Assembly: GCA_964016885.1 (NCBI GenBank)
Contig: OZ024740.1
Location: 178,560,001 to 178,624,000 of the forward strand
Origin: Eledone cirrhosa
Lineage: Eukaryota
DNA: 64,000 nt
Direction of reading: 5' to 3'
Position 1 is the first letter of the stretch. The number at the start of each line of letters is the position of its first letter. A program made the position numbers and the translations under genes. The notes beneath the pieces are model-generated. The model saw only the letters and a program-made list of their open reading frames with translations, made no database searches and was not told the DNA's origin. Shown in pieces: positions 1,724-39,084 of this stretch.

Positions 1724-4700
1724 TTATTGAAGAGCAGATTTATACACAACGTTTTTGGTTTTCCCGTCAGGAGCATACATAAATAGGCTGTCAGGATTAC
1801 CAACTCGAGAACAGCCAACGTAAAACTGACCATGTGAAAAGCAATGGGTTTGAAGATCCAGACAAACAACTTTGAGATTGGCCTTGAGATTTGTTTATGG
1901 TCATTGCAAAACTAGGCTTTTCATGGGAAATGGACAATCAGAGGGGGTAAAGGAAATTCATTTCGCCCGGGTCCTGTGATTATTTCTGCCTCAATTACAA
2001 GGTTCATCAGTTGCTTTACCACCAGCCTTGTTGCATTACAAAGAAAGAGGGGGGGGGGGGGGGGTGTAAATTACGTAGCAGGATAACAGGAGCTCCAACT
2101 TTTAGATACAACTCGTGAGGAGGTAGTCCTGGAGGATCCTGAGAGTTAAGAAACTCTGTTGGGAAGTTGGTCACTTGATCAAAGTCTGTAACAATGTCAA
2201 CTGACTTGTAACAGCGTTGAATAGAGGGCAACTGACCAACTATTTTGTGATTGATCAGCTTAACAGCAGCATTTGTAGGTGCAAGAATAGCCCTCTCACA
2301 AAGCCAATCAGTTGAAAGATTTGGATAAACTGAAGAACATAAGTCATCGGGCGTTGAAACTGAGCGGCCAATGCTAGAAGTATCAATGTATCCATTGTTG
2401 TCGGACTCAAGTTGACCATCTCCGATTTGGAGGAGTTGAGTGGAAAATGGCGTAGACGGACAACCAGTTTGTAATAGCGATCGCATATTAATTGTTAGTT
2501 TTTGTACCTCAACAAACTGCCAAAAAGAGGACTTTTTTAAGCAGGCATCCACTTCATCAGCAGGTGATCCATTTGGTACCACCGGAATTGTCTGTCTGAA
2601 GTCACCTGCGAGAAGAAGAGTGGCTCCTCCAAATATATTGTCATTAGATCTAAGATCTTTCATTGTGGCATCTAGTGCCTGAAGAGTGCCTTTATGGGAC
2701 ATGGTTGCCTCATCCCACACAATTAGTTTACAGCTTTTCAACAGAGCAGCTTCGTCAGAACTATGTGAGATATTGCAGATGACATTCTCTTGATGGACGA
2801 CGTTCAGTGGCAGCTTGAAGGTCGAGTGTGCTGTGCGCCACCTTCTAAAAGAGTCGCAGCTTTACCTGAAGAGGCAACAGCAAGTGTAATGTCGCCATTC
2901 TGCCTTACCTTGGCAAGAATAAGATTAAGCAGAAATGTTTTACCGGTCCCTCCAGGTGCATCTATGAAGATAATCCCGCCAGTATTGCTGTATACCTTGT
3001 TTATAACGGATTTGTATGCAGATTCTTGATCTGGATTAAGGAGAGACTCGTTGACAGCTACGTATTGTCGAAGGATGGTTTTGTCGTAGCTGGTTTCTCT
3101 AAGGAGGAGTCGATTAAAAGTTTGCTCTTGGTTTGTATCCGGAGAAGGGAAGCAGCATGCCTCCAAACATTGACCTCCAATTGCCACAACTAAGTCCTCC
3201 AAGATAATTAGACCAGCGTTATACATAGAGGGGGTAAAAGCAGTGGTGGAATTTTCGGTAGTATGACAGGTTTGAAGCCATATATCGTGGCACATGTGGT
3301 CCCTGTATTTATTCCACAACAAAGGTGAGTTAACAAAGTTGCAGAAAACCAGAATAATGGCGAATAGATGCCGAAGCTTTGAGGGAGATCGACGGAGAGA
3401 CGCTTCCTCAAGTATACTCTCATAATGGTTGTCCGTATCGATGAGTCCCCGTTTAAAGCAGGCGTCCTTGAATGTCTTGCATAATTGACCATCCACTCTG
3501 TGAAGGGCTGCAAAGGATGTTGGTCCACGTACAACGTGAAGCAGCAGCCGAAGATGGAAGCATTCGAAGTTCAAAGGATGAAGAGTATAGACGCGTCCTA
3601 TTGTGTCACTTTCAAAAATGGCAGGATCTGAATCGATATGTCGGCCCTGTTTTCTTCTTTGCCATAAGAAAGTTGAGTGGTTCCAAGAATAATAATGAGA
3701 AACATCAACATACAGTAGACTTTTTGCGTATGAGTCAACCGTACAGAGTTCGAAAAATGCAGTCAAAGTTGACCTACGCGGGGCAAGAACTTGTTGACGT
3801 AAGATTTCTTCAGTGAAGTAAACTCTCTGCTTGTCCTCTAAGTGAACACTGAGATGTTGAACAAAGGGGAATCGCTCGTGTATAGAGAAACGAAACATTC
3901 TCCAAACGGCCTCATTGGTTGAGATATAACGCCCTATTTGAAACAGTTCTACCTCATCTGTTGATGCAGCTGTTGTTCCTGTTTGTGCCACTTGAAAGAC
4001 GGATCTATCGGATCCCTTATTGACGTATTTGCAAACGTAACGTATAGATTTAACTGAGTTACAATATTCAACGTTAATGCGTATTAAATGTCTTGCATAG
4101 CATCTTGTTATGTGGAACAACCCATTTGTTATCAATTGTAAATTCTCGGTTAGATCCATGTTTGATTGTTGCTGTGAAACCTCCATGTCCAGGAGCTCTT
4201 CTGCGATATAATGGGTAACCGTGGTTACCTGTGATCGTCTCAGCCAAAATCTTTCCTGGATATTTCTTAGTGCATTTTCTGTTTGCCATGCATGAATACG
4301 TAGAATTAAAGTGCCGACATGGCCCATGAACCATATTTTTTCGAATGATTTCGTACAACTGGGGGTCTTCATTGGGATTTGGAAATTCTGCACTTATGAC
4401 TGTGTCCACGTCAGAGGGTCGAAGTTTGCTTTGTAGCCAGAGTAAGATGTGGGCGTGAGGTAGACCACGATTTTGCCATTCAACAGAATACATAAAACAT
4501 TTGATCGGCCCGAAAATGTCACCACATTTAAACAAATCAATCATTTTACGAACTTTAAGATGAAAAACGCGAGCAGTGATGTTTCAGAAGCTATCGCAGC
4601 AGTCCGATAAGCACAATCGGAAGCCTGGCGACGTATGCGTTATTCAGGTGTCTCCGCAGCTCTCGAGGCACCAGTCGCGGCAGCATTGCGTTTTCTTCGA

Positions 4701-5023
4701 GTTGCACGCTGTTCAGGTGTCTCCGCAGCTCTTGAAGAAGCAGTCGCGGCAACATTCAGCACTAACCGAATAGTACGTTCCGCTGTAGACTCATTTGATC
4801 GTGAAGCAGCAGTGGTTTGTGCATTTTTTGCTATACGGGCCGCAAGCTTTTCTACTGAGTATCGATGTGATGAATGCGAAGTATTGAGACTTGCGTTGTA
4901 GGCAGCTAATGTCGATAACCTAGTTGTCCTCTGCTCCTCAGTTTCATTAGCTCGACGCTGCTTTTCCTTAACCACACCCATCGACAATCTGCTGAGGCAA
5001 CTTCTTTTTTTTCCACGAGGCAT
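1724..5023 (-). pseudogene. RepHel pseudogene (STPR-like repeats, HUH Rep, PIF1-family helicase)
   Basis: MPRGKKR start; RAAETPEQRATR repeats; Rep motif 2 VEWQNRGLPHAHILLW; motif 3 RYVCKYVNKG; Walker A DAPGGTGKT; Walker B IVWDEATM; GDFRQTIPV; FAMTINKSQGQ; KTKNVVY then stop at 1724. Several frameshifts. Confidence 0.93.
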
Positions 5024-6797
5024 CGAAACGGAATGTGTAAAGTAGACACGATATAACACAATCGAATGTATAAATAAAGATTAATTGTAAAATGTATTTG
5101 AAGTACATGTAGCGGTAGAACGTTCGAAATGTACAGTGTATGTAAGTTAATAACTAACTTATATGTCAGAAATGTCGTCTAATCAATGCGAAAAAATAGA
5201 ATAATTCTAAGTCTCTGATGTATAAACCAAACTTTAGATAAATTTAAGCATAATATTGTAAAAGTTATGACACCACTTAATGTATGAACATCAAGCTTGA
5301 AGCGATAACAAATCTATAACTTAACTTAGTAATCTGTTAGAAATTGCTGGTTGTGAAATATACAAAATGATAGTGGTAGTCTCTTTGTTTCAAGTACAAA
5401 GAGTAAATTAAAATCCGTTTGAGCCGAATTACGAAAGATAACTCTTGATTACGAAAGATAACTCTTGTCTTACTTAATCACGAAAATTCACACAAATAAC
5501 CGAAACATTTTTAATGTCTCCAAAGGCCCCAATATCGATTTTTTAACATGTACAGGTTTTGTGCAAGGAGAAGCTCTGTAAAAAATCTCAAAGAAATCGC
5601 ATGAATGGTTTAGAATATATGAGCCCTCATTAAAAAAAATTGTCCACTCACACATACACATACATACAGAAACAAACTACAGATATATATATATATATAC
5701 ATATACACACAGAAACAAACTACAGATTTATATATATACAGATATATATATATATATACTCCACTACCTTAAGTTCTGCTTCAGTGTGTATATTTTTCCC
5801 GTTATTTTATTTTATTTTATTTCTTATCTTTATTTTATTATATACTAGCAGTAAAGCCCGGCGTTTCTCGGGGCTGCTCAGTAGTTGTGTTAAAGTTACA
5901 ATGTTAAGTTCCTTTCTAGGCTTAAAAACTGTAGAGTCTACTGTGTAGACTTTCATGTGGTACTTTTGATTAATATTCCCTCAACCAACAGTATGCCTTA
6001 TGAAGTTAAGAAAACATAACCATAACCCGAATGTTAAAACAAAAGAGGATGCTGGGGATAAAAACTGCACTGGTAATCTATTAACAAAAATCGAAAATGT
6101 AAACACTGCAACACATGTCTCAGAGACAAACATCAGCGTAACCAAACTATCAGTTATTTTGAAACAAAAAAATTGGATGGACATGAAAAACAAAAGAAAA
6201 ATGCGTTAAGCCAAGTCGAGGGGCAGGCAGCATCAAGGAGGTTCGCACCTGTGATAAAAAATATTGACGATGTAATAGCATAGATGTTTAAGTATAAACT
6301 ATGAAGAGCTCATAACATACCCATGGTGAGATTATAGACAGCCATAGCATGCGAAATGGACAGCTGCAGCAAAAGCCATATTCACCAAAAAATCGCTGAA
6401 ATCAACAAAATAGAAATGCTGCTTCCATTGCATCTTCACATGCAATTGAGAATGATGACGAAAGTTTACTTCGACGCACCAGAAATGGTGTTGTTGCGTG
6501 TTGTCTAGGTCGGAATGCATATTGAAACAATGAAAGAAATGACGGGAACAATATTTGTATGTATGCACCAAGTTGTGTGTGTCTATGTATTAAACGCTGG
6601 ACTTGTCAGTAACTGGAGGGGCGTCCTTAACAATCGACAGCATCGATTTCAGAGTCTGTTTTGATTTGCGAGCAATTCTGGTCCTTAGAGGCCTAGGTGT
6701 CAATAGAATGCATTGCATCGATGTTGAATACAGGTTTCTTTGAAGCTATATATTTAAGGCAGTCGGTGTAACATTGTCGCTTTGAACCCAAAAAACC

Positions 6798-9700
6798 CTA
6801 TAATACCTCACGGTATACAATATTCTTTGTTTTTCCGTTTGGAGCAAAAGCAAAGAGGTTGTTCCGGCTGCCAACTTGAGAACATCCAACGTAGAATTGT
6901 CTATGTGAAAAACATGGCTCCTCCAGGTGAAGTCCTGCCACAGATAAAGTCTGACCCTGGGACTTGTTGATGGACATAGCAAAGGCAGCACGAAGGGGAA
7001 ATTTGGTTCTTTTAAAAGAATAGGGTGCATCCACTCCTGATGTAGTAAGAGTTACCGTAGGTATTAAAACATCTTCTTTTCCACACCCCGACATAATCGT
7101 AGCATAAATAATGTGCTGTGACATCCTATTGACAACAAGGCGTGTACCATTGCAAAGCTTCGGAGGGGTTATATTCCTGAGAAGTATAACTGCACATCCT
7201 TCCTTGAGAGACAAAATATGTTGAGGTAGACCGGGAATATCCAATGAATTGAGGAATTCAATGGGATAATTGACCGCATCATGTGGATCAACATTGGTAT
7301 CAATAGACTTAAAAGTCTTATCATTTTCAGGAAGACTTTCAAGCATTTGGCGATTAATGGCGGAGACAGTGACATTTGTAGGAGCTAATATAGCCCTCTC
7401 ACACAGCCACGTATGATTGCGGTAATTATCTGCCAAGTTGGGAAAAACTGCTGCCTTGAGATCTTCGACAGTGTTAACCAGACAGCATATATTGTCGAGT
7501 GCAATGTCTCCATGCACATCTGAAGGTACTTTGCCGTCGCCAAGAATGAGAAGGTCTTCAGCAAATTTTTCAGACACAGTATCGCCAGGCAGTTGAACAC
7601 GCATGTTAGTGGTCAGACGAAGTGTTGTTCCCTGTTGCCACAATGGAGAAAACTTCAGGCAGGCCCGAACTTGATCCGCTCTGGTGCCCTTTGGAATAAC
7701 CGGCAAAGTTTGTCTAAAGTCCCCTGAAAGCAAAAGAGTTTCACCCCCCCCCCATGGTCTTCTGACGATCTCTAATGTCTTTCAATGTTCTATCTAAGGC
7801 CTCAATAGCTCCTTTGTGAGCCATGGTGCATTCATTCCACACAATCAGTTGGGACCTTCGTAGCAGTTCTGCTCTTGGACTATCCTTGGTGATGTCACAG
7901 AGCGGTGTTTCAGCTGATACCAAGTTAAGTGGAAACTTAAAGGTATTCTGCCTCCAGGAAGTAGTGTTGCTGCAATACCGGATGATGCAACGGCTATTGC
8001 AATAACTTCATTCTGTCTAACTTTGGCAAGAAGAAGTTCAGTAACAAAGGTTTTTCCAGTGCCTCCAGGGGCATCGAGACAGAAGATACCACCCCATCGA
8101 TGAAATACATAGTCGGTGATAGTTTTGTATGCAAATTGCTGATCCGGAAGTAGTTTTGGTTCCATTTCAAACACATATCTATCTAGAGTGTCGGCATCAT
8201 AAGATGTTTCTTGGATGATGAGAGTTGGAATTTTATTATTATTAGAATCAGTGCGGTGGGTTTGTGGCAGTCCGTATGCTGGCAAGGCATTCCCATCCAT
8301 AAGGAAAATCCTGTCCTCTATGTCTATAAGCCCTTTATTGTATAAATCATCACTGAAATCTAAATCTACTTCTATGTCAAGAAGTAGTAGTTGAGCCTGG
8401 CGCAGGAAGTCCTCAGACAGTCGGTTCAGAAACTTCAACCATAATGTGTAGGGATCACCAATGTTACATAAGATAAGAAACTTTGCAAAGAGCTCTCGTA
8501 GGCTTCCAGCTGAGTGTGATGAAGCGATCTCCGCCAAAGTTGCATTCTATCGAGAGTCAGCTTCAAGCATTCCACGAGCCAAACAGGCATCTCTGTATGT
8601 AGACCAAACACGATTACCGTTCTGAGGTCCTGAAACCTGGTCGGTCCTTTGACCTCATGCAGTAGCATTCGAAGATAGAAGCACTCGTGTTGATTTGGAG
8701 GAATCGTATACACTCGTCCCAAGCAATTAGTGAATTTGATCCCGGGAACTCCAATAACTGGTTGGTCAGTCTTTCTGTTCTCCATGTTTTTTTTATTCCA
8801 TGTGTAGTATGATGGCACCTGAGAATACAGCAATGATTTTGCGAAGTCATCGTATTCGCACAGTTTAAAAAATCCAGTTAAAGTTGTCTCCTTGGGGTCT
8901 GTGTCAATTCAGCGGCATTTTTCTTGGTATAGTACATCCATTGACCGTGTTCTAGGTGTACATCTAATTTTACAATTGAAGGGTGCCTATCATGTATTGG
9001 AAATCCGAAGATTCGCCAAAAGGCTTCGCTACTACTTATGTAGCGCCCTACTTGGAATTGCGTTAATTCGTCTCTATTGTTTTCGTTGAGTATACCGAAC
9101 GAAGCAGCGTCAGCACCCTTATTAACATACTTACATATGTATTTGATGCACTTGACGGAGCTGCAGAATTCAACATTAATGTGTGCGTTGAAAGTACTGA
9201 GCAGGAGTGGGCAATAGGGAATGATCCATCGGTTGTCAACCTCGCAATTTTTAACCCTTGCCGTAAAACCCCCCTCTTCACATCGCCTACGTCTATATAA
9301 TGGGTAGCCATCATTGGCAGTCTGAGTATCGCGAATAAATTGACGAGTGCATCTTTTATTGCCTGTAACGCATTGTAAATCAGTTCTAAAGCCAGGCCCA
9401 CATGGACGATGCACCATATGTGCCCTAACTTTCATGTACTAGTCCTTGTCAGTGGAAGGATCCGGTAATTGTGCAGAGATAATCCTGTCAATGTCGTCAG
9501 GACTAACTTTTGTTGTCAGCCAAATAAGAATATGAGCATGGGGGAGGACCCTTTTTGCCATTCGTTTGTGTATATGTCACATTGAACTGGTCCGAAAAAT
9601 CTCACCTAATTTGATAAGATCCATAAGCTTAAGTAACTTAATACGGAATACTCTAGCCGCGAGATCATGTAGACCTGTGGCGTTCTGACAAAGAAGGAGT

Positions 9701-12005
9701 TCGCCCTCAATCTCCTTCCAATTGGGGTTGCAAGTAAATGTTATAAATAAGTCTGGCCTACCGTAATGTCTTACAATGGTCATGGCGTCCTTTCATGCAT
9801 ATATCGAGGGCTTCCCGTGAAGGTAGATGGCAGAATGCATACTTTTCCAAGACTCTCAGGATACGCATCATTGTTCATTCCATCACGAAGGTGTATGTAA
9901 CTGTCACAACGCAACTTTTTTTGATTGAGTTTGATAAAACACAATCTCTCAGATACCATTTTGCACTCATGTCAGTTGCATACTGGTTGAAAAGGTCTTT
10001 TGAGCGATGGAGGTGACTAAAACAGTCATCTCGGATCATGAATCGGAAGGCATAGAAGTCCTTGCATGAAACTGTTTTGGTAGAATGAACCTCTGAATTG
10101 GTAGATTTACATTGTGGAATGCCAAAATGGTATCCGTCCTCTCCATATACCAAAAGCAGCGGGTGTGTTTCACTGATCCGTTGAAGTCCGTGGTCGCGAT
10201 GCTTGATAATAATGTCACGTTTGTTGTGCTGATCAACAGTGAGAAGTATTGCAACCTCATTGAAAGAAGGTGAATTATAGCGGCCTGCATGTTATCCAGA
10301 TGGCCACTTGTCAGCATGAATGACGACATAGTAATTGTCCACGGAGCTGTTTCTAACGCGTATTTGAAGCTCTGAACGTAGCTGTTATGAGTATGAAGCA
10401 TGTCCTGAAGTTCAACACGGAGCTCCAGTCTAGTGTCAGAAGCAATTGAGTATTTGAGTACTTGTTGCTTGTGGACAGTAAATTGAGTTTTGAGTTTTTT
10501 CTTTTGGGAAGGCAAATGTATTTCGCCTTGTAGCTTGTTCAAGACAGTTGGGCATAAAGTAGACCTGAAGAAATTGGGGCTCTTTATAAGCTACAGGATC
10601 CAGCGATCCGATAAGATGATAAACCTGACCTTGAACTTTGAAAGTGGGCATAAATCCACCTTCATACTCATAACTCGATCCAAAAGATGTCATTTGGAAG
10701 GCACAATTGTAATGTCGAATATCTTGAAGGAAACCTCTTGAGAGTGAATGGGTGTTGTAAGAAGAAGCCTCAATGGCTGTGGTGGATCCCTAGGAGGGTG
10801 CAAGTTGACCTTACCATTAGAGCAGTACATTCCGGCTGGTTGACCCAGCCACTTTTTGGCTTTGCAAAACTGGCAAATTTCAGACATGCCGCCGATTTGA
10901 ATATGAGGGTGTGTAGCATAATTAATAGCGGAGACATAATTGAAAGCCTTCAATGACAATTGTGATTTCGCAGCCCTCGAAATACCCTGCGTATTGGTTT
11001 TATACTGCCCCCCCCCAGTCGAATAGTTAGGATAGCTGCTGTCTCTGCTTCTCGCGCAGCTGCAGTAGCTGCCGCGTCTCTGGTCTGACGAAGATCACGT
11101 TCAACATCATTTTCTTCATCTCGCGCAGCTGCCGTAGCAGCCGCGTCTCTGCTCTGACGAAGATCACGTTCAACATCATTCTCTGCAGTTCGCGCAACTG
11201 CCGTAGCAACCGCGTCTCTGCTCTGACGAAGATCACGTTCAACATCATTCTCTGCAGTTCGCGCAACTGCCGCAGGAGCCGCGTCTCTGCTCTGACGAAG
11301 ATCACGTTCAACATCATTCTCTGCAGTTCGCGCAACTGCCGCAGCAGCCGCGTCTCTGCTCTGACGAAGATCACGTTCAACATCATTCTCTGCAGTTCGC
11401 GCAACTGCCGCAGGAGCCGCGTCTCTGCTCTGACGAAGATCACGTTCAACATCATTCTCTGCAGTTCGCGCAACTGCCGTAGCAACCGCGTCTCTGCTCT
11501 GACGAAGATCACGTTCAACATCATTCTCTGCAGTTCGCGCAACTGCCGTAGCAGCCGTGTCTCTGCTCTGACGAAGATCACGTTCAACATCATTCTCTGC
11601 AGCTCGCGCAGCTGCCATTGCAGCCGCGTCTCTGCTCTGACGAAGTTTACGCTGAACATCATTCTCTGCAGCTCGCGCAGCTGCTTTTGCCTTTGCATTT
11701 CTTGCAAGCCGAGTTTGAGATTCCTCGTTATTCACTGCAGCATGTGAGGATGCAGTTGAAGAAGCATTTCTGGTGCGTCAAAGTAAACACTCGTCATCAT
11801 TCTCTGTTGTATGTGAAGATACAATGGAAGCAGAATTTCTGGCCCGTCGACTCAAGCAATGCTCATCGATAGACAGGGCTCTCGCATTCACTGAACACCC
11901 CACAATTTGAGGCTGTCTAATGCTCGACGACGCCTCAGTCAGCCTCATTCTTTTCGTTATCTGCGACCGCGTCAGTCGTAATAAGGGCATCTTCTTTTTA
12001 GGCAT
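6798..12005 (-). pseudogene. RepHel pseudogene (STPR-like array, Zn finger, HUH Rep, PIF1 helicase)
   Basis: MPKKKMP start; CQFCKAKKW..YCSNGKV; FKVQGQVYH; Rep motif 1 PDLFITFTCNPNW; motif 2 LPHAHIL; motif 3 KYICKYVNKG; DAPGGTGKT; GDFRQTLPV; FAMSINKSQGQTL; KTKNIVYREVL. Many frameshifts and stops. Confidence 0.95.
11040..11690 (-). repeat. 69-bp tandem array (about 9 units) encoding 23-aa STPR-like repeats
   Basis: GATCACGTTCAACATCATT recurs at 11093, 11162, 11231 and so on with period 69; translation (ENDVERDLRQSRDAAATAVARTA)n. Confidence 0.92.
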
Positions 12006-13726: not shown

Positions 13727-13789
13727 CAAATATAAATTCAGCGAAAATCGTTCTGCGAGATTACTTATCTGAAAACATGTGTTGAAAAA

Positions 13790-13920
13790 GATATTGTTAT
13801 AATGTGGGAGGGTCATGCTGCCAATAAAAACACACGCACCTTTGATTTTCACTTCAATTTATTATAAGTTTCCGGTTTGTTGGTTCGATAACCGGAAGGC
13901 TGTTTATTTATTGTCAAAGC
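13790..13920 (-). repeat. pLTR-like repeat family (also 38045-38245 and 52900-53295)
   Basis: Shared GGGAGGGTCATGCTGCCAATAAAAACACACGCACC...CACTTCAATTTAT; this copy is cut off by (TA)n at the edge of the hammerhead. Confidence 0.8.
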
Positions 13921-13973
13921 TATATATATATATATATATGTGAGAAAAACCACAGACCCTCCATCTCAACTCA

Positions 13974-14011
13974 CCTTTTGAAAAGCAGAAGAACTGCGAA
14001 ACCGGTAAAGG
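13974..14011 (+). ncRNA. Minimal type I hammerhead ribozyme, U3-A8 core
   Basis: CCTT-TTGAAAA-GCAG(AAGAA)CTGC-GAAA-CCGG-TA-AAGG: all stems perfect, palindromic CCGG stem III, GUA triplet. Confidence 0.8.
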
Positions 14012-14142
14012 AACCAAATAAATATATATATTTAAAAAAAAAATAAGACTTCAGTTGCATTTTCGATTTCATCTCTTTTTCTTTATACTTTCACTCGTGT
14101 AGGACACCTCGGTTATTTTTCATTTTGTAAAAAGAACCGCAC

Positions 14143-14231
<89 letters not shown>

Positions 14232-14234
14232 TAG

Positions 14235-14311
<77 letters not shown>

Positions 14312-14348
14312 ATATAAGATAAAAAGATGGTTAAAATAGTTCCAAGTA

Positions 14349-14415
14349 TTTTATTATGCGCATTTCAAAAACAAATATCATCATGGGTTGATATCTGCGT
14401 TCTAATCAGATACAA
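14349..14415 (-). ncRNA. Type I hammerhead in the PLE1 pLTR (G8U mutated)
   Basis: Minus strand TTGTAT-CTGATTA-long stem II-GAAA-TGCGCA-TA-ATAAAA. Confidence 0.65.
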
Positions 14416-15376
14416 TAGGGATACATAATATGAAGCTTAAAAAACACTTGTGAATAGTGAAGTTTTAAAGCAACATATGAAAGATAAATTAAGATTGATG
14501 TATGAGATTGAGAAAAAGTCGGGGGGGGGGAGGTAAGGAAGAGATGAAAGTAAAGAATGTTGGGGGAGGAGTATAAGAGGGAAGGATGAGAGAGGAGGAG
14601 AAATGGGTGATAGAGAGAGAGATAGCCTTTACAACTGAGAAAAAAATATATATTGTCTCACAGAGAGAAATTAAAAAACCGTTGGAAGATAATAGATAAT
14701 TTAAAAGAAATTGAAATTAAAAGTTAATGAGGTTTATGCATGAAGAGAAAAAGGAATTAAGAATAATGTTAAATTATGGTTTGTATATTGAAGGGTTTAA
14801 AAATATGTGCGAGGAAAGAAATTATTAATATGTATTATTAAAATAAAAATAGTAATGTTATTAAGGATATATTGTGAAAAGAAGGAGAAGAATGAATTAG
14901 TTATGAATTTAGAGGAGTTAGTTAGGGTTTAAGTTTGTTTTTATGTATTGTAATATGTAAAAGTTAAACGAGCATGAAAGGATGGAGGAAATAAGGGAAA
15001 TTTAAGGAAGAAAAAATCTAACGTAAAAAAATTATGTTTACGAAAGACTTCTAATGGTAATACTATAATGTATTAAAACAATTATAATTGTTATGGCCAA
15101 TGATATGAGGAAAGATGGAAGAATGGATAAGGTTTTGGTGAGTAATAATAAGAATTGAGAAGTAGTTACGAAGAAAAGGTAGGGATTAGAGTTTAGAAAT
15201 TAAAAAGAAAAGAGGAAGAAAGGAGAATGATAAAGAGGAATGATATGGAATGAGTAAATTGTATTATATAATATATAATAAATAATATTGAAATAAGGTA
15301 GAAAGATAGGTATATTTGTAAACGATATATATAAGCCTTTGAGAAAAAGGATTTTAAACTAGTAAGTTATTAGATA

Positions 15377-16930
15377 TTAGCTGTATACTTTATGGAATGT
15401 TATGTGGAATTTATGCAAGCAGAGAGAAAATAAATCCGTGCGTCTATTTACTATAGAATTGAAATTAGATATAATGGTAAATTTCTCAGCTAGGCAAAGA
15501 TTACATGTTCTGCATAGGGAGGCATTCAAGTAGGGAACAAACTTTTCTCCAAGAAAAATTATAGTTAATATTTTTGTCTTTCAAGGACCATATGAGTTCC
15601 GAGGGTGCCGTGTTAGTTCTTTTAAGTTGCTATCTAAAAGACGAATTGTGATTATAAAATCTAGCTTTGAAGGAGGTGGAGGTGGAACCGAAATAGTTAA
15701 AGGAATTGGTATCAGTTATAACCTTACATTCATAGACTAAGCTTTTATCAAGACAATGGTTATTAAGAGGACATTTAGTTCTAACAGGGCAATTACAATC
15801 ACGATTAGAGAAATTAACGGAGTTATTAACAAGTGACCTAGTGTTATTTATAGGAGGAATTGGATTGGAGAAGTTATTTACGATAGGAATAATAGTTTCC
15901 TGATTTGATTGGTATTAAGAAAATTCAACGAAGTTACGTTTGACGTCGTATTTAAGTTTACAAAATCTAGCCTAGAGTTAACAATGACGTCGGGAGTATT
16001 ACTGCTATTATTATGACACTCAGTGTTGGAAGGATGTGATTTAATATTTAATATTTTATTGTTGTGTTTAGAGATAATGTTAGAGATGTTGGAATAGGTG
16101 GAATAAGAAAATGTTATTGTATGTTTGTTAAAGATTTTACTATATATATAAGTGAGGGACGGAAGCATTTATCTAAGGCCCTAAAGAATAGTTTAGGAAT
16201 ATTATTATTAATAGAAATAGAAAAAGGAGCATTATACCAGATTATATTTTTGTATCTAGATCTTTTATTTAAGTTATTGGAATGATCATAATTAATTATT
16301 TTACTGTAAGACCTTCTAGGATTGGGTTCTTTACTGTATTTAATTTTATCAGGATAACCGGCTTTAGAAAGCCCATTATTATAGTAATTGGCGTTAGCAT
16401 CGAAGATATTTTTTTATTAGAGGATAGGTTTGATATTCTTTTTCCAATATTACTGACTATAGCATTTTTAATGTTAGTGGGGTGGTTAGATTTAAAATTA
16501 ACATAATTTAGATTCTCATTGTTTTTATGGTAAGGGTAATATAGGCCAGTGTCAAGATTAAGGGATATATCCAAGAAGTTAGCTAGTTTGACGTTGTTAT
16601 CAAATTCAATTTTAAGGTTATGTTGTTTAAAGAGATCATGTATATTGTTCTTAATAATATTAAGGTTAACTAAGTTGAAATATAAGATAGTAAAAAGTCC
16701 ATCGTAACGATAAATTCCACCACGAAGTTGAGGAATTTTCTGATTTAAAGAATTCAAAATAAAAATACCAATCAAATCAGTCAATTACGATGTATCGGAA
16801 GCACCCATTGTGATATCAAATTTGTTGGAAGTATCGGTTCTTGTCCAGTATTCATTGTTGAATTCTAAGATGGTATTTCTTTCGGTGAGAATGATGTAAA
16901 GTTCATATGTGGTGATGTCAGAATATTTAA
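15377..16930 (-). pseudogene. PLE reverse transcriptase + GIY-YIG endonuclease remnant
   Basis: FDITMGASD, GIYRYDGL (YRDD motif), NFLDISLNL, SNHP, CPLNNHCLDKSLVYECKV..YFGSTSTSFKARFYNH, CNLCLAEK. Confidence 0.88.
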
Positions 16931-17515
16931 ATTTTTGTTTGTTTGCTCATTTTTAAACAAGCTATTACGTACACATATTACAATACATAAAAACAAACTT
17001 AAACTCCTCTAAATTCATAACTGATTCAATCTTCTCCTTCTTTTCACAATATATCCTTAATAATATTAATATTTTTATTTTAATAATACATATATAATTT
17101 CTTTTCCTCGCACATATTATTAAACCCTTCAATATACAAACCTTAATTTAATATTATTCTTAATTCCTTTTTCTCTTCATGCATAAACCTCATTAACTTT
17201 TAATTTCAAATTCTTTTAAATTATCTATTATCTTCCAACGGCTTTTTAATTTCTCTCTGTGAGACAATATCTATTTTTTTCTCAGTTGTAAAGGCTATCT
17301 CTCTCTCTCTATCACCCATCTCTCCTCCTCTCTCATCATTCCTTCTTATACTTCTCCCCCACCATTCTTTACTCTCATCTCTTCCTCTTCCTTACCTTTT
17401 CCAACCCCCTCACTTTTTCCCAATCTCATACATCAATCTTAATTTATTTTTCATATGTTGATTTAAAACTTCACTATTCACAAGTGTTTTTTAAGCGTCA
17501 TATCATGTATCACTA

Positions 17516-17582
17516 TTTTATCTGATGAGAACGCAGATATCATCCCATGATGATATTTGTTTTTGAAATGCGCATAATAAAA
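17516..17582 (+). ncRNA. Type I hammerhead in the inverted PLE1 pLTR
   Basis: TTTTAT-CTGATGA-GAACGCAGATATCATC(CCAT)GATGATATTTGTTTTT-GAAA-T(GCGC)A-TA-ATAAAA; canonical core and palindromic tetraloop. Confidence 0.85.
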
Positions 17583-17728
17583 CACTTGGAACTCTTTTAA
17601 CCATCATTTGATCTTATATTATTTATACTCCAGTCCTACACACTGTAGAGTGCTACTTATCCGATATTTGCATTGCTTTATTGTGATACAATAAAACTCA
17701 CCTCCTACATCATATATATATATATATA

Positions 17729-18037: not shown

Positions 18038-18104
18038 TTTTATTATGCGCATTTCAAAAACAAACATCATCATGCAATAATATTTGTGTTTTCATCAGAT
18101 AAAA
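18038..18104 (-). ncRNA. Type I hammerhead (PLE1 family)
   Basis: Minus strand TTTTAT-CTGATGA-stem II-GAAA-TGCGCA-TA-ATAAAA. Confidence 0.8.
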
Positions 18105-18192
18105 CAGGAGAACATGATATGAAGCCTAAAAAATATGTTGATTTAAAACTGCACTATCCACAAGTGTTTTTTAGCCTTCATATCATGTTCTG

Positions 18193-18259
18193 TTTTATCT
18201 GATGAAAACACAAATATTATTGCATGATGATGTTTGTTTTTGAAATGCGCATAATAAAA
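18193..18259 (+). ncRNA. Type I hammerhead (PLE1 family)
   Basis: TTTTAT-CTGATGA(18199-205)-stem II-GAAA(18242-45)-TGCGCA-TA-ATAAAA. Confidence 0.8.
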
Positions 18260-27950: not shown

Positions 27951-27989
27951 CTCTATATATATAAGGAAAAAAGATGAAATGATACAAAA

Positions 27990-29327
27990 TCTCCTGGCTC
28001 CTCTCCCAGGTCCTCAAGCCTCTACTCTCCACCATTCCCGGAAATGTTAGTAGCTCCGACGAAGTCATACGTAGACTACACCAACTCCAACCAGAACAAC
28101 TTAAACTAAATAGATACGCCTTAAGCCTCGACCTTGTCTTCCTCTACATTACAGTCCCCGCTCATCCAGATGTCGATTTATTGACGGACTGCGTGGTTGC
28201 AGAGGACATACACTGCTACGGCCTCCATCCGACGGACATATACCAGCTTTTGTCCTTCACAGTGGACAACACGTACTTCACCTTCCACCACCACACATAC
28301 AGACAGACAACAGGATTACCCATGGGATCCAGCCTATCGGGCCTGCTGGCCATCACCTATATGAACCAGCTAGAATGCCGAGCCCTCAACATCTGCACTT
28401 CCCATACCTTCTTCACCCGATATGTAGATGACATACTCATCCTTACATCATCCCGTGAGGAGGCTGATAAATATACACAACATTCTCCAGCATGGACGCC
28501 AGTATAAAGTTCAGCATGGAACACCCCAATGACCGCAGATCCTTATTCCTACTGGACTTCCAACTAAGGGTAACAGAGGAAGGCAACATCCACACCTGCT
28601 TCTATAAAAAAGCCGCCAGCAGGGACCTGTTTGTACATTTCAGATCCGCCCTCCCAGCCGGCGCTAAGTTCGGATACATAAGGAACGAACTAACACGTAT
28701 CCGGAACAAATGCACCGACGCTAGAGACTGAGACACACACACCACACATTTCCTGGAAGTACTCAAACTGAACGGATACCCGACATCCACCACGAACCGT
28801 GCCAGAAAGAACAGAGGACACCACACCCGAGGCACTAACACCTGCTTCCTGAAGCTCCCACACTTCAGTGAGGAAACAACAACAGCCATCCGCAGAGCTA
28901 TCAGACGAGAGGGACTAGATATCCAACTAGCTCACTCAGGACCTTCTCTACGCGGACGGCTAACCAAAAGACACTCCACCAGACATGACAGCCGCTGCAG
29001 GCTAGCCAACTGCCCCATCAACGACACAGACCCATGCCACCAGGCTTACGTCGTATACAGATTAGAATGCGACAAATGCAGCAATTTCTACGTAGGTAGC
29101 ACCACCAGACCACTTCACATAAGAATAAAAGAACACCTCAATACCAACGCTTCCTCATTTAAGAAACACCTAGTGAAATGCAAAAACACCGACAAAAACA
29201 TAACAGTTAGGATAGAAACTAAGGAAAGAAACCTCGGCATCTTAGAATTAAGGAAGCACTGATTATAGACAAAACGCAACCTCCAATCAATAATAGACTA
29301 GAACTGAACACCCAATTTATAACTTGA
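27990..29327 (+). pseudogene. PLE RT + GIY-YIG remnant
   Basis: SLDLVFLYITVP, GLPMGSSLSGLLA, TRYVDDIL, LLDF, FYKK, NGYP, LKLPH, VVYRLECDKCSNFYVGSTTRPLHIRIKEH, EAL..PPIN. Confidence 0.92.
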
Positions 29328-38971: not shown

Positions 38972-39027
38972 ACTGCCTGATGAGGTCATAGCCATTCAAT
39001 GGCTATCATCGAAATATATATAGCAGT
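38972..39027 (+). ncRNA. Type I hammerhead, canonical core
   Basis: ACTGC-CTGATGA-GGTCATAGCCAT(TCA)ATGGCTATCATC-GAAA-T(ATAT)A-TA-GCAGT. Confidence 0.85.
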
Positions 39028-39084
39028 AAATAAAGGATTATTAGTTCATGCAATTGACTTATGTTTCGTCACTATATATATATA

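What the first reader, a model, noticed from the sequence alone, without database searches (positions are those of the whole stretch)
13974..14011. Perfect 38-nt minimal hammerhead with a U3-A8 core (UUGAAAA)
Seen: CCTT/AAGG, GCAG/CTGC, GAAA, palindromic CCGG and a GUA site are all intact, but the core reads TTGAAAA. Established: C3 and G8 form a tertiary Watson-Crick pair, and the U3-A8 double change restores cleavage and occurs rarely in nature. Searches for CUGANGA would miss it. Inference: an active or recently active variant.
Basis: partly seen in the sequence, partly recalled or inferred. Interest (0 to 1): 0.8.

Follow-up and report, generated by a model that had tools for sequence, protein, structure and literature searches.

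The report
Penelope retroelement's U3-A8 minimal hammerhead
The 38-base motif is the standard hammerhead-ribozyme motif of a young, roughly 12,000-copy Penelope-type jumping gene in a probable octopus genome; its U-A core pair is already in print for such elements, and it likely cuts only weakly, as a pair of RNAs or with protein help, so it is a new example of a known thing.

Summary
Confirmed at 13974-14011: CCTT-TTGAAAA-GCAG/CTGC-GAAA-CCGG-TA-AAGG (0 hits in 300 shuffles). It sits in a ~213-bp solo pseudo-LTR (13938-14150) of a Penelope-like retroelement inserted in (TA)n. U3-A8 is the family standard, not decay: of 12,078 exact genomic matches 25 have G8, 105 lack U3, and at most 5 are C3-G8. 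Full-length copies encode ORF1, then RT and GIY-YIG nuclease with a Neptune/Nematis-type Cys linker; many frames are open. An older sister family keeps U3-A8-A17 with a compensatory stem I change; seven related elements from metagenome contigs carry C3-G8 at the same place. U3-A8 minimal hammerheads in PLEs are published (Cervera and De la Pena 2014, ~1,300 in Schistosoma), and this scan noted the kind before on other DNA. Cleavage is untested. Against efficient cleavage: stem III forms only between two RNAs, U3 can pair with A17 (predicted, like the C3-G17 trap), and 25 of 30 copies picked by a downstream anchor keep the whole motif. A modest excess of 5' ends near the cut site is inconclusive. 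Verdict: new member of a known kind, low interest; the retained U3/A17 pairing is the one unusual point.

The parts
13938..14150 (+). Solo pseudo-LTR of a Penelope-like retroelement (from -70 to about +143 relative to the predicted cut), flanked by (TA)n on both sides
   Evidence: 97.7% and 97.2% identical to the 3' and 5' pLTR of full-length copy L033; flanks; same ends as many other copies
13974..13977 (+). Stem I, 5' strand (CCTT)
   Evidence: A instead of the first C, with a matching T on the 3' strand, in the sister family
13978..13984 (+). Catalytic core U3-A9 (TTGAAAA) with U3 at 13978 and A8 at 13983
13985..13997 (+). Stem-loop II (GCAG-AAGAA-CTGC), closing pair G10.1-C11.1
13998..14007 (+). 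GAAA core, palindromic stem III (ACCGGT, 14001-14006) and A17 (14007); predicted cut between 14007 and 14008
   Evidence: A17 in all but 80 exact matches; same palindrome in 4 of 7 related elements
14008..14011 (+). Stem I, 3' strand (AAGG)
14088..14150 (+). Optional 'tail' between the two fixed 3' ends of the family (+79 = 14087 and about +143), likely the two internal reverse-transcription start sites
   Evidence: 25 and 34 of 67 copies end at these two sites; loose contig ends at +79; tail model from PMC11167929
13921..13937 (.). (TA)n target, 5' side
14151..14316 (.). (TA)n / (GATA)n microsatellite, 3' side

Best explanation
The motif is the family-standard U3-A8 minimal type I hammerhead in the pseudo-LTR of a young, high-copy Penelope-like retroelement, and it likely cleaves only slowly and conditionally, when two pLTR RNAs pair through the ACCGGU palindrome or when the element's protein helps it fold. 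Shown: the sequence, its place between the end of the RT-nuclease frame and the start of ORF1, its near-fixation in about 12,000 copies, and C3-G8 at the same place in related elements. Inferred: transcription starts about 70 nt upstream of the cut site; the RT starts internally at +79 or +143 on a nicked (TA)n target; copying back to the RNA 5' end gives solo pLTRs such as this one, so most templates were uncut. Inferred: U3-A8 replaced C3-G8 under selection to keep the 3-8 pair, and a competing U3-A17 pair further damps cleavage. The window copy itself is a passive insertion with no coding part.
For: Family census: 12,078 exact matches, 25 with G8, 105 without U3, none of the 100 listed non-U3 rows has G8; 25 of 25 whole-motif copies picked by an independent downstream anchor have U3-A8, 1 of 950 motif positions differs. 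Full-length pLTR-ORF1-ORF2-pLTR unit of 4,673 bp with the motif in both pLTRs; RVT_1 and GIY-YIG in the 775-aa frame; 19 of 150 scored copies have that frame open (read by eye). Sister family: U3 27/30, A8 30/30, A17 28/30, no C3 or G8, stem I C-G changed to A-U. Seven of 11 related loci inspected (RT 43-52% identical) carry a C3-G8 hammerhead at the same place, four with the same palindrome. Closing A15.1-U16.1 in the monomer costs 5.4 kcal/mol, the double-hammerhead fold scores -18.9. Published minimal PLE hammerheads cleave weakly and only as multimers (PMC4209133) or with protein, with uncut RNA as main template (PMC11167929). 32 of 65 sampled 5' ends lie at -75..-62, 3 at the cut site to +4.
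Against: No cleavage data for this RNA. In the pLTR context stem I is predicted rarely (pair probability 0.03-0.04) and stem II at 0.41-0.58. U3-A17 is predicted at 0.56 in the monomer and 0.46 in the dimer. The sister family has a U-U mismatch at 10.1/11.1 and only two further Watson-Crick pairs in stem II, and about half of this family's read depth has a variant that shortens stem I to 3 bp: both fit a weakening motif. Uniformity within one family reflects recent amplification, not selection on each copy. The transcription start is inferred from insertion ends only.
Confidence: 0.72

Rival explanations
1. Vestigial hammerhead: after the change to U3-A8 with A17 the RNA is locked by U3-A17 and no longer cuts; it is carried along because the element does not need cleavage, or because the sequence serves as promoter or protein-binding site.
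For: U3-A17 trap predicted by analogy with C3-G17 (PMC3884650); weak stem II in the sister family; 3-bp stem I variant in about half of the depth; 25 of 30 copies keep the whole motif; cleavage-dead mutants still insert in vitro in the Anolis element.
Against: All core and palindrome positions are kept across two families about 74% alike while stems change, one change compensatory; 5' ends near the cut site are somewhat more frequent than in upstream control windows (161 raw against 82 and 98).
Confidence: 0.2
2. Efficient, active ribozyme that cuts tandem transcripts to unit length; cut RNA is then circularised and copied across the rejoined site.
For: Intact core and a Watson-Crick 3-8 pair; U3-A8 described as active in vitro in Perreault et al. 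(citing earlier work I could not read); circle model proposed in PMC4209133; tandem units exist.
Against: Half of the sampled 5' ends lie about 70 nt upstream of the cut, which a circle does not explain but an uncut primary transcript does; ends at the cut are a few percent at most and spread over 0..+6; no stable monomer stem III.
Confidence: 0.07
3. Decayed CUGANGA copy with two chance transitions, or a chance match.
For: C>T and G>A are the common decay changes (general knowledge).
Against: At most 5 of 12,078 matches can be C3-G8; sister family also U3-A8; 0 of 300 shuffles.
Confidence: 0.01

Closest known systems
U3-A8 minimal hammerheads in pLTRs of Cercyon Penelope-like elements of Schistosoma mansoni (Cervera and De la Pena 2014, PMC4209133; main text parts 1-2 of 4 and supplementary file 2 parts 1-2 of 3 read)
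   Same: Type I minimal fold, U3-A8 core (row S. mansoni(4) has the same UUGAAAA), short stem I, palindromic stem III, place in the pLTR, mostly solo or inverted copies, thousands per genome.
   Different: A17 here (U17 in row S. mansoni(4); the letter in row (3) reads G in the machine-read text); no extra nucleotide between A9 and G10.1; 4-bp stem II; 6-nt palindrome; about ten times more copies and very uniform; host element has a Neptune/Nematis-type Cys linker.
Neptune/Nematis clades of C-terminal EN+ PLEs (Craig et al. 2021, PMC8557442; passages and figure legends read)
   Same: RT followed by CX2-5CxxC linker and GIY-YIG with CCHH, (TA)n targets, pLTRs, inverted 5' copies, optional tail, ORF1 that may be set off by a frameshift.
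   Different: Clade not placed by a tree here; the figure that assigns ORF1/frameshift to clades is not held as text.
Poseidon PAc element of Anolis carolinensis (Frangieh et al. 2024, PMC11167929; parts 1-2 of 4 read)
   Same: Two fixed 3' ends defining a tail, AT-rich targets, hammerhead in the pLTR, uncut RNA as main template.
   Different: PAc has C3-G8, one ORF that starts inside the hammerhead, RT starts inside the ORF; here both ends lie upstream of ORF1 and the tail is about 64 nt.
Natural U3-A8 core covariants (Perreault et al. 2011, PMC3088659; section 8 and passages read)
   Same: C3-G8 to U3-A8 covariation; U10.1-U11.1 start of stem II as in the sister family.
   Different: Described there as several examples; no link to this element.

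Membership tests
Minimal type I hammerhead of metazoan PLEs (Cervera and De la Pena 2014) | Conserved core with Watson-Crick 3-8 pair and GAAA | tested here: met
   U3-A8
Minimal type I hammerhead of metazoan PLEs (Cervera and De la Pena 2014) | Stem II closed by G10.1-C11.1; short stem I | tested here: met
   4 bp each
Minimal type I hammerhead of metazoan PLEs (Cervera and De la Pena 2014) | Palindromic 15/16 region in place of stem III; NUH site | tested here: met
   ACCGGU, GUA
Minimal type I hammerhead of metazoan PLEs (Cervera and De la Pena 2014) | [quoted passage not shown] | tested here: not met
   A9 is followed directly by G10.1; the published alignment also holds rows without it, e.g. 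Marsupenaeus, so this is a common trait rather than a defining one
Minimal type I hammerhead of metazoan PLEs (Cervera and De la Pena 2014) | Located in the pLTRs of a PLE | tested here: met
   both pLTRs of L033
Minimal type I hammerhead of metazoan PLEs (Cervera and De la Pena 2014) | Self-cleavage (weak, as dimer or with protein) | not testable with these tools
   only an inconclusive genomic hint
EN+ Penelope-like element | RT with C-terminal GIY-YIG nuclease | tested here: met
   Pfam RVT_1 E 1.3e-6 (28.7 bits, just under the 29.6 cut-off) and GIY-YIG E 2.1e-6 (above cut-off)
EN+ Penelope-like element | Partial-tandem pLTRs, inverted 5' copies, optional tail | tested here: met
Neptune/Nematis clades | CX2-5CxxC linker and CCHH motif | tested here: met
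   C-x4-C-x2-C before the nuclease, two Cys inside GIY-YIG and two later His, read from the translations
Neptune/Nematis clades | (TA)n insertion bias | tested here: met
   3' ends run into (TA)n in all 30 loci and in most of the 67 copies
Neptune/Nematis clades | Placement by RT phylogeny (Neptune versus Nematis) | not tested
   no named reference PLE proteins among the 120 listed hits
Non-LTR retrozyme | Short non-coding head-to-tail tandem units each with a hammerhead | tested here: not met
   single copy in the window; family unit is 4.7 kb and coding

The most novel reading that the evidence does not exclude
The U3/A17 combination is a kept safety catch: a U3-A17 pair, the mirror image of the inhibitory C3-G17 pair, holds the ribozyme off in new transcripts so that uncut RNA can be reverse-transcribed, and RNA pairing or the element's protein flips U3 to A8 to cut a small share of RNAs; the small pile of insertions that begin at the cut site would then be a genomic record of hammerhead cleavage in the germ line, which has not been shown for a metazoan PLE in the papers I read.
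Probability: 0.15. Interest if true: 0.55.

Novelty: new member of a known kind. Interest (0 to 1): 0.25.

Why it matters
As it stands it adds one more, unusually abundant and uniform, U3-A8 family to a published class and shows that CUGANGA and Rfam searches miss about 12,000 motifs in one genome. Its practical value is as a test case: a young element with open frames, a sister family, C3-G8 relatives with the same stem III, and thousands of insertion ends that can be mapped against the cut site. That bears on the open question of what hammerheads do for Penelope elements. If U3-A17 proved to be a switch, it would be a natural regulatory use of a fold known so far as an inhibitory trap.

Tried and rejected
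Rfam gathering search of the window: 0 matches. RNA evidence: no RNA holder listed among 4 runs; this says nothing on expression. Contigs of those 4 runs were laid on the pLTR but the tool skipped the repeat that starts at the cut site, so ends there could not be read. First metagenome scan with a single protein: 115 stretches, none confirmed; the alignment scan worked. Four of 11 related loci inspected (L156, L161, L162, L165) showed no convincing hammerhead in the DNA held. Pile-up of 5' ends at the cut site: 161 raw matches against 82 and 98 in two upstream control windows; 7 of the 30 inspected test loci are local duplications, not ends (six flagged, L120 seen by eye), many control rows are visibly small indels, the windows differ in design and in microhomology to (TA)n, and an RT pause at the hairpin would give the same picture; no corrected count exists, so this stays inconclusive. 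ORF1 has no Pfam match below E 0.3. The decay reading and the retrozyme reading were rejected. Przybilski and Hammann 2007 (PMC1986816), the kinetic paper on 3-8 exchanges, is not held. File 1 of the Cervera supplement could not be searched and figures are not held; a published U3-A8-A17 motif could stand there.

Full report
Observation. Bases 13974-14011 read CCTT TTGAAAA GCAG AAGAA CTGC GAAA CCGG TA AAGG. This is a type I hammerhead layout: 4-bp stem I, core with U3 and A8, 4-bp stem II closed by G10.1-C11.1, GAAA, the palindrome ACCGGU in place of stem III, and a GUA site with the predicted cut after 14007. A descriptor gave 1 hit in the window and 0 in 300 shuffles. Rfam at gathering thresholds gave 0 matches in the window.

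What it belongs to. The window is part of a 3.0-Gb genome. The nearest named relatives of the element's protein are Octopus bimaculoides proteins (74% and 65% identical) and bivalve proteins (46-51%), so the host is probably an octopus; the many AT microsatellites fit. The 210 bases around the motif match dispersed copies at 93-100% (40 long matches listed). In all 30 fetched loci the 3' end runs into (TA)n, and many have an inverted partial copy in front. Copy L033 is full length: pLTR with the motif, ORF1, ORF2, 3' UTR, pLTR with the motif, 4,673 bp from motif to motif. ORF2 (775 aa stop to stop) has RVT_1 and GIY-YIG matches, a C-x4-C-x2-C linker and a CCHH pattern, the marks of the Neptune/Nematis clades in Craig et al. 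2021 (passages). I did not place it by a tree. The window copy, 13938-14150, is 97% identical to both pLTRs of L033 and is the only piece of this family in the window: a solo pLTR.

Is U3-A8 decay? No. A pattern that leaves positions 3, 7 and 8 free has 12,078 exact matches and 0 for the reversed control. Of these 25 have G8 and 105 lack U3; none of the 100 listed non-U3 rows has G8, so at most 5 are C3-G8. Only 80 exact matches differ at A17. Of 30 copies picked by a downstream anchor that does not touch the motif, 25 hold the whole motif, all with U3-A8, and 1 of 950 motif positions differs from the majority. The family is young: 19 of 150 scored copies have the 775-aa frame open (by eye) and two of the three regions fetched have both ORFs open.

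Evidence that the pair is under selection. An older sister family (copies 86-93% identical to one member; about 74% to ours) has U3 in 27 of 30, A8 in 30 of 30, A17 in 28 of 30 and no C3 or G8; its stem I is 7 bp and swaps the outer C-G for A-U, while its stem II opens with a U-U mismatch and has two Watson-Crick pairs. Among related elements in metagenome contigs, 7 of the 11 loci whose 3' regions I printed (RT 43-52% identical) have a hammerhead between ORF2 and ORF1; all 7 have C3-G8, 4 share ACCGGT, 6 have U17 and 1 A17; 4 loci showed none. Two distant elements (29-31%) have U3-A8 with U17 or C17. So U3-A8 is a true double change at a homologous site, most simply from C3-G8 (inference; no rooted tree).

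How it most likely works. Closing A15.1-U16.1 in the monomer raises the energy from -4.7 to +0.7 kcal/mol, whereas a double hammerhead with a 6-bp intermolecular stem III scores -18.9. This is the dimer model of Cervera and De la Pena, who saw no monomer cleavage and low multimer cleavage for a (C3-G8) S. mansoni motif. Folding also predicts that U3 pairs with A17, extending stem I (-6.4 against -4.7; probability 0.56 in the monomer, 0.46 in the dimer). The like C3-G17 pair is the proposed reason why G17 blocks minimal hammerheads (PMC3884650, passages); the transfer to U3-A17 is my inference. In the whole pLTR, stem I is predicted at only 0.03-0.04. About half of the contig depth carries a variant that leaves 3 bp of stem I.

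Insertion ends as a record of the RNA. Among 67 copies in 60 loci (half picked by the motif, half by a downstream anchor), 34 end at about +143 and 25 at +79 from the cut site; of 65 whose 5' end lay inside the locus, 32 begin at -75..-62 and 3 at the cut to +4. Loose contig ends at -71/-70 and +79 agree. Two fixed 3' ends match the two internal RT starts that define the tail in the Anolis element. The 5' hot spot is best read as the transcript start (inference), so solo pLTRs like this one are copies of the first 150-215 nt of an uncut transcript. This agrees with Frangieh et al., where cleavage needed protein, was not required for insertion and left no RNA-seq ends. I looked for a second pile at the cut: 161 raw matches begin at -2..0 against 82 and 98 in upstream control windows. 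But 7 of 30 inspected test loci are local duplications, many control rows are small indels, and in a finer search of 85 copies the apparent starts were spread, by eye 17 at 0, 17 at -1 or -2, 12 at +1, 9 at +2 and 3-10 at each of +3 to +6. A small cut sub-population, an RT pause at the hairpin or microhomology to (TA)n would all fit. No corrected count was made; the point is open.

Comparison with what is known. Cervera and De la Pena 2014 report a U3-A8 variant in Cercyon PLEs of S. mansoni with about 1,300 hits, and their alignment has a row with the same UUGAAAA core and U17. Perreault et al. 2011 report natural U3-A8 covariation and say that it had been shown active in vitro; I could not read that kinetic paper. 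A whole-word search for U3-A8, U3A8, C3U or G8A with hammerhead gave 4 papers, of which only Cervera is relevant; a search for Octopus with Penelope, hammerhead and Neptune listed no paper on this family (listing only). None of the three U3 rows in the 56-row alignment has A17 as read by machine; supplementary file 1 and the figures were not visible. The 2026 retrozyme preprint was read in part 1 of 5 only, the killifish Neptune paper in passages (two ORFs), the Adineta paper in passages. Earlier notes of this scan describe the same kind on other DNA, 29 findings in at least 6 genomes; none lies near this window or resembles this sequence. They are unchecked and not independent support.

Side result. 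ORF1 (400 aa from its first Met) overlaps ORF2 in the -1 frame, ORF2 has no Met until residue 163, and the overlap holds the heptamer T TTT TTA in the right phase in 3 of 4 copies examined; 4 of 5 related elements have TTTTTTA and one TTTTTTG at their overlap. A programmed -1 frameshift is likely (the slippery pattern is recalled knowledge); Craig et al. already note ORF1 set off by a frameshift with a pseudoknot in some PLEs.

Verdict. It works like a minimal PLE hammerhead and meets every membership feature that could be tested except the non-universal extra nucleotide; cleavage is untested and probably weak. Interest 0.25. The retained U3/A17 pairing and the chance to read cleavage from thousands of insertion ends are the parts worth a follow-up.

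Noticed in passing
L296:6353-9816; L298:3708-7171; L156, L157, L158, L164, L167: ORF1 overlaps the RT-nuclease frame in -1 with a conserved TTTTTTA slippery site, here and in related elements: likely programmed -1 frameshift. ORF1 has no Pfam match.
   Followed up: partly
window 17516-17580 (+), 18193-18259 (+), 18038-18104 (-), about 14360-14410 (-): A second PLE family with a C3-G8 hammerhead, long stem II and ATGCGCAT palindrome; 18038-18259 is an inverted pair, and the copy at about 14360-14410 has G8 changed to T. 14317-17711 looks like a decayed copy on the minus strand with an RT-like frame at 16296-16784.
   Followed up: partly
window 13740-13920 (-): Fragment of a third (TA)n-targeting repeat directly left of the finding; relatives in other loci carry a C3-G8 hammerhead just upstream, and this copy begins about 5 bases before that family's predicted cut site, followed by a hairpin.
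   Followed up: partly
window 38972-39032 (+): Another C3-G8 hammerhead-like motif with 5-bp stem I and an AT palindrome.
   Followed up: no
window 2016-11777 (-): Broken frames that read like Helitron Rep/helicase (recalled likeness, not scanned), with a 69-bp coding tandem array at 11052-11684.
   Followed up: no
window 27965-29262 (+): Fragments of a more distant PLE (RT piece 24-26% identical to P0001/P0002, GIY-YIG-like frame).
   Followed up: no
L034:8100-8101: A two-base variant just 5' of stem I is in about half of the contig depth; it removes the fourth stem I pair and marks a subfamily.
   Followed up: partly
G000:C23:12133382-12133888 (L273): A 47-bp tandem array made from the 5' part of the sister-family pLTR.
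   Followed up: no
L219:117, L211:1969: Hammerhead-like motifs with G3-C8 and A3-U8 cores beside distant PLE-like RT frames in metagenome contigs.
   Followed up: no
P0013, P0018, P0044, P0062, P0090: Close relatives of this animal retroelement protein are filed under bacterial gill-symbiont names, probably host DNA in symbiont assemblies.
   Followed up: no
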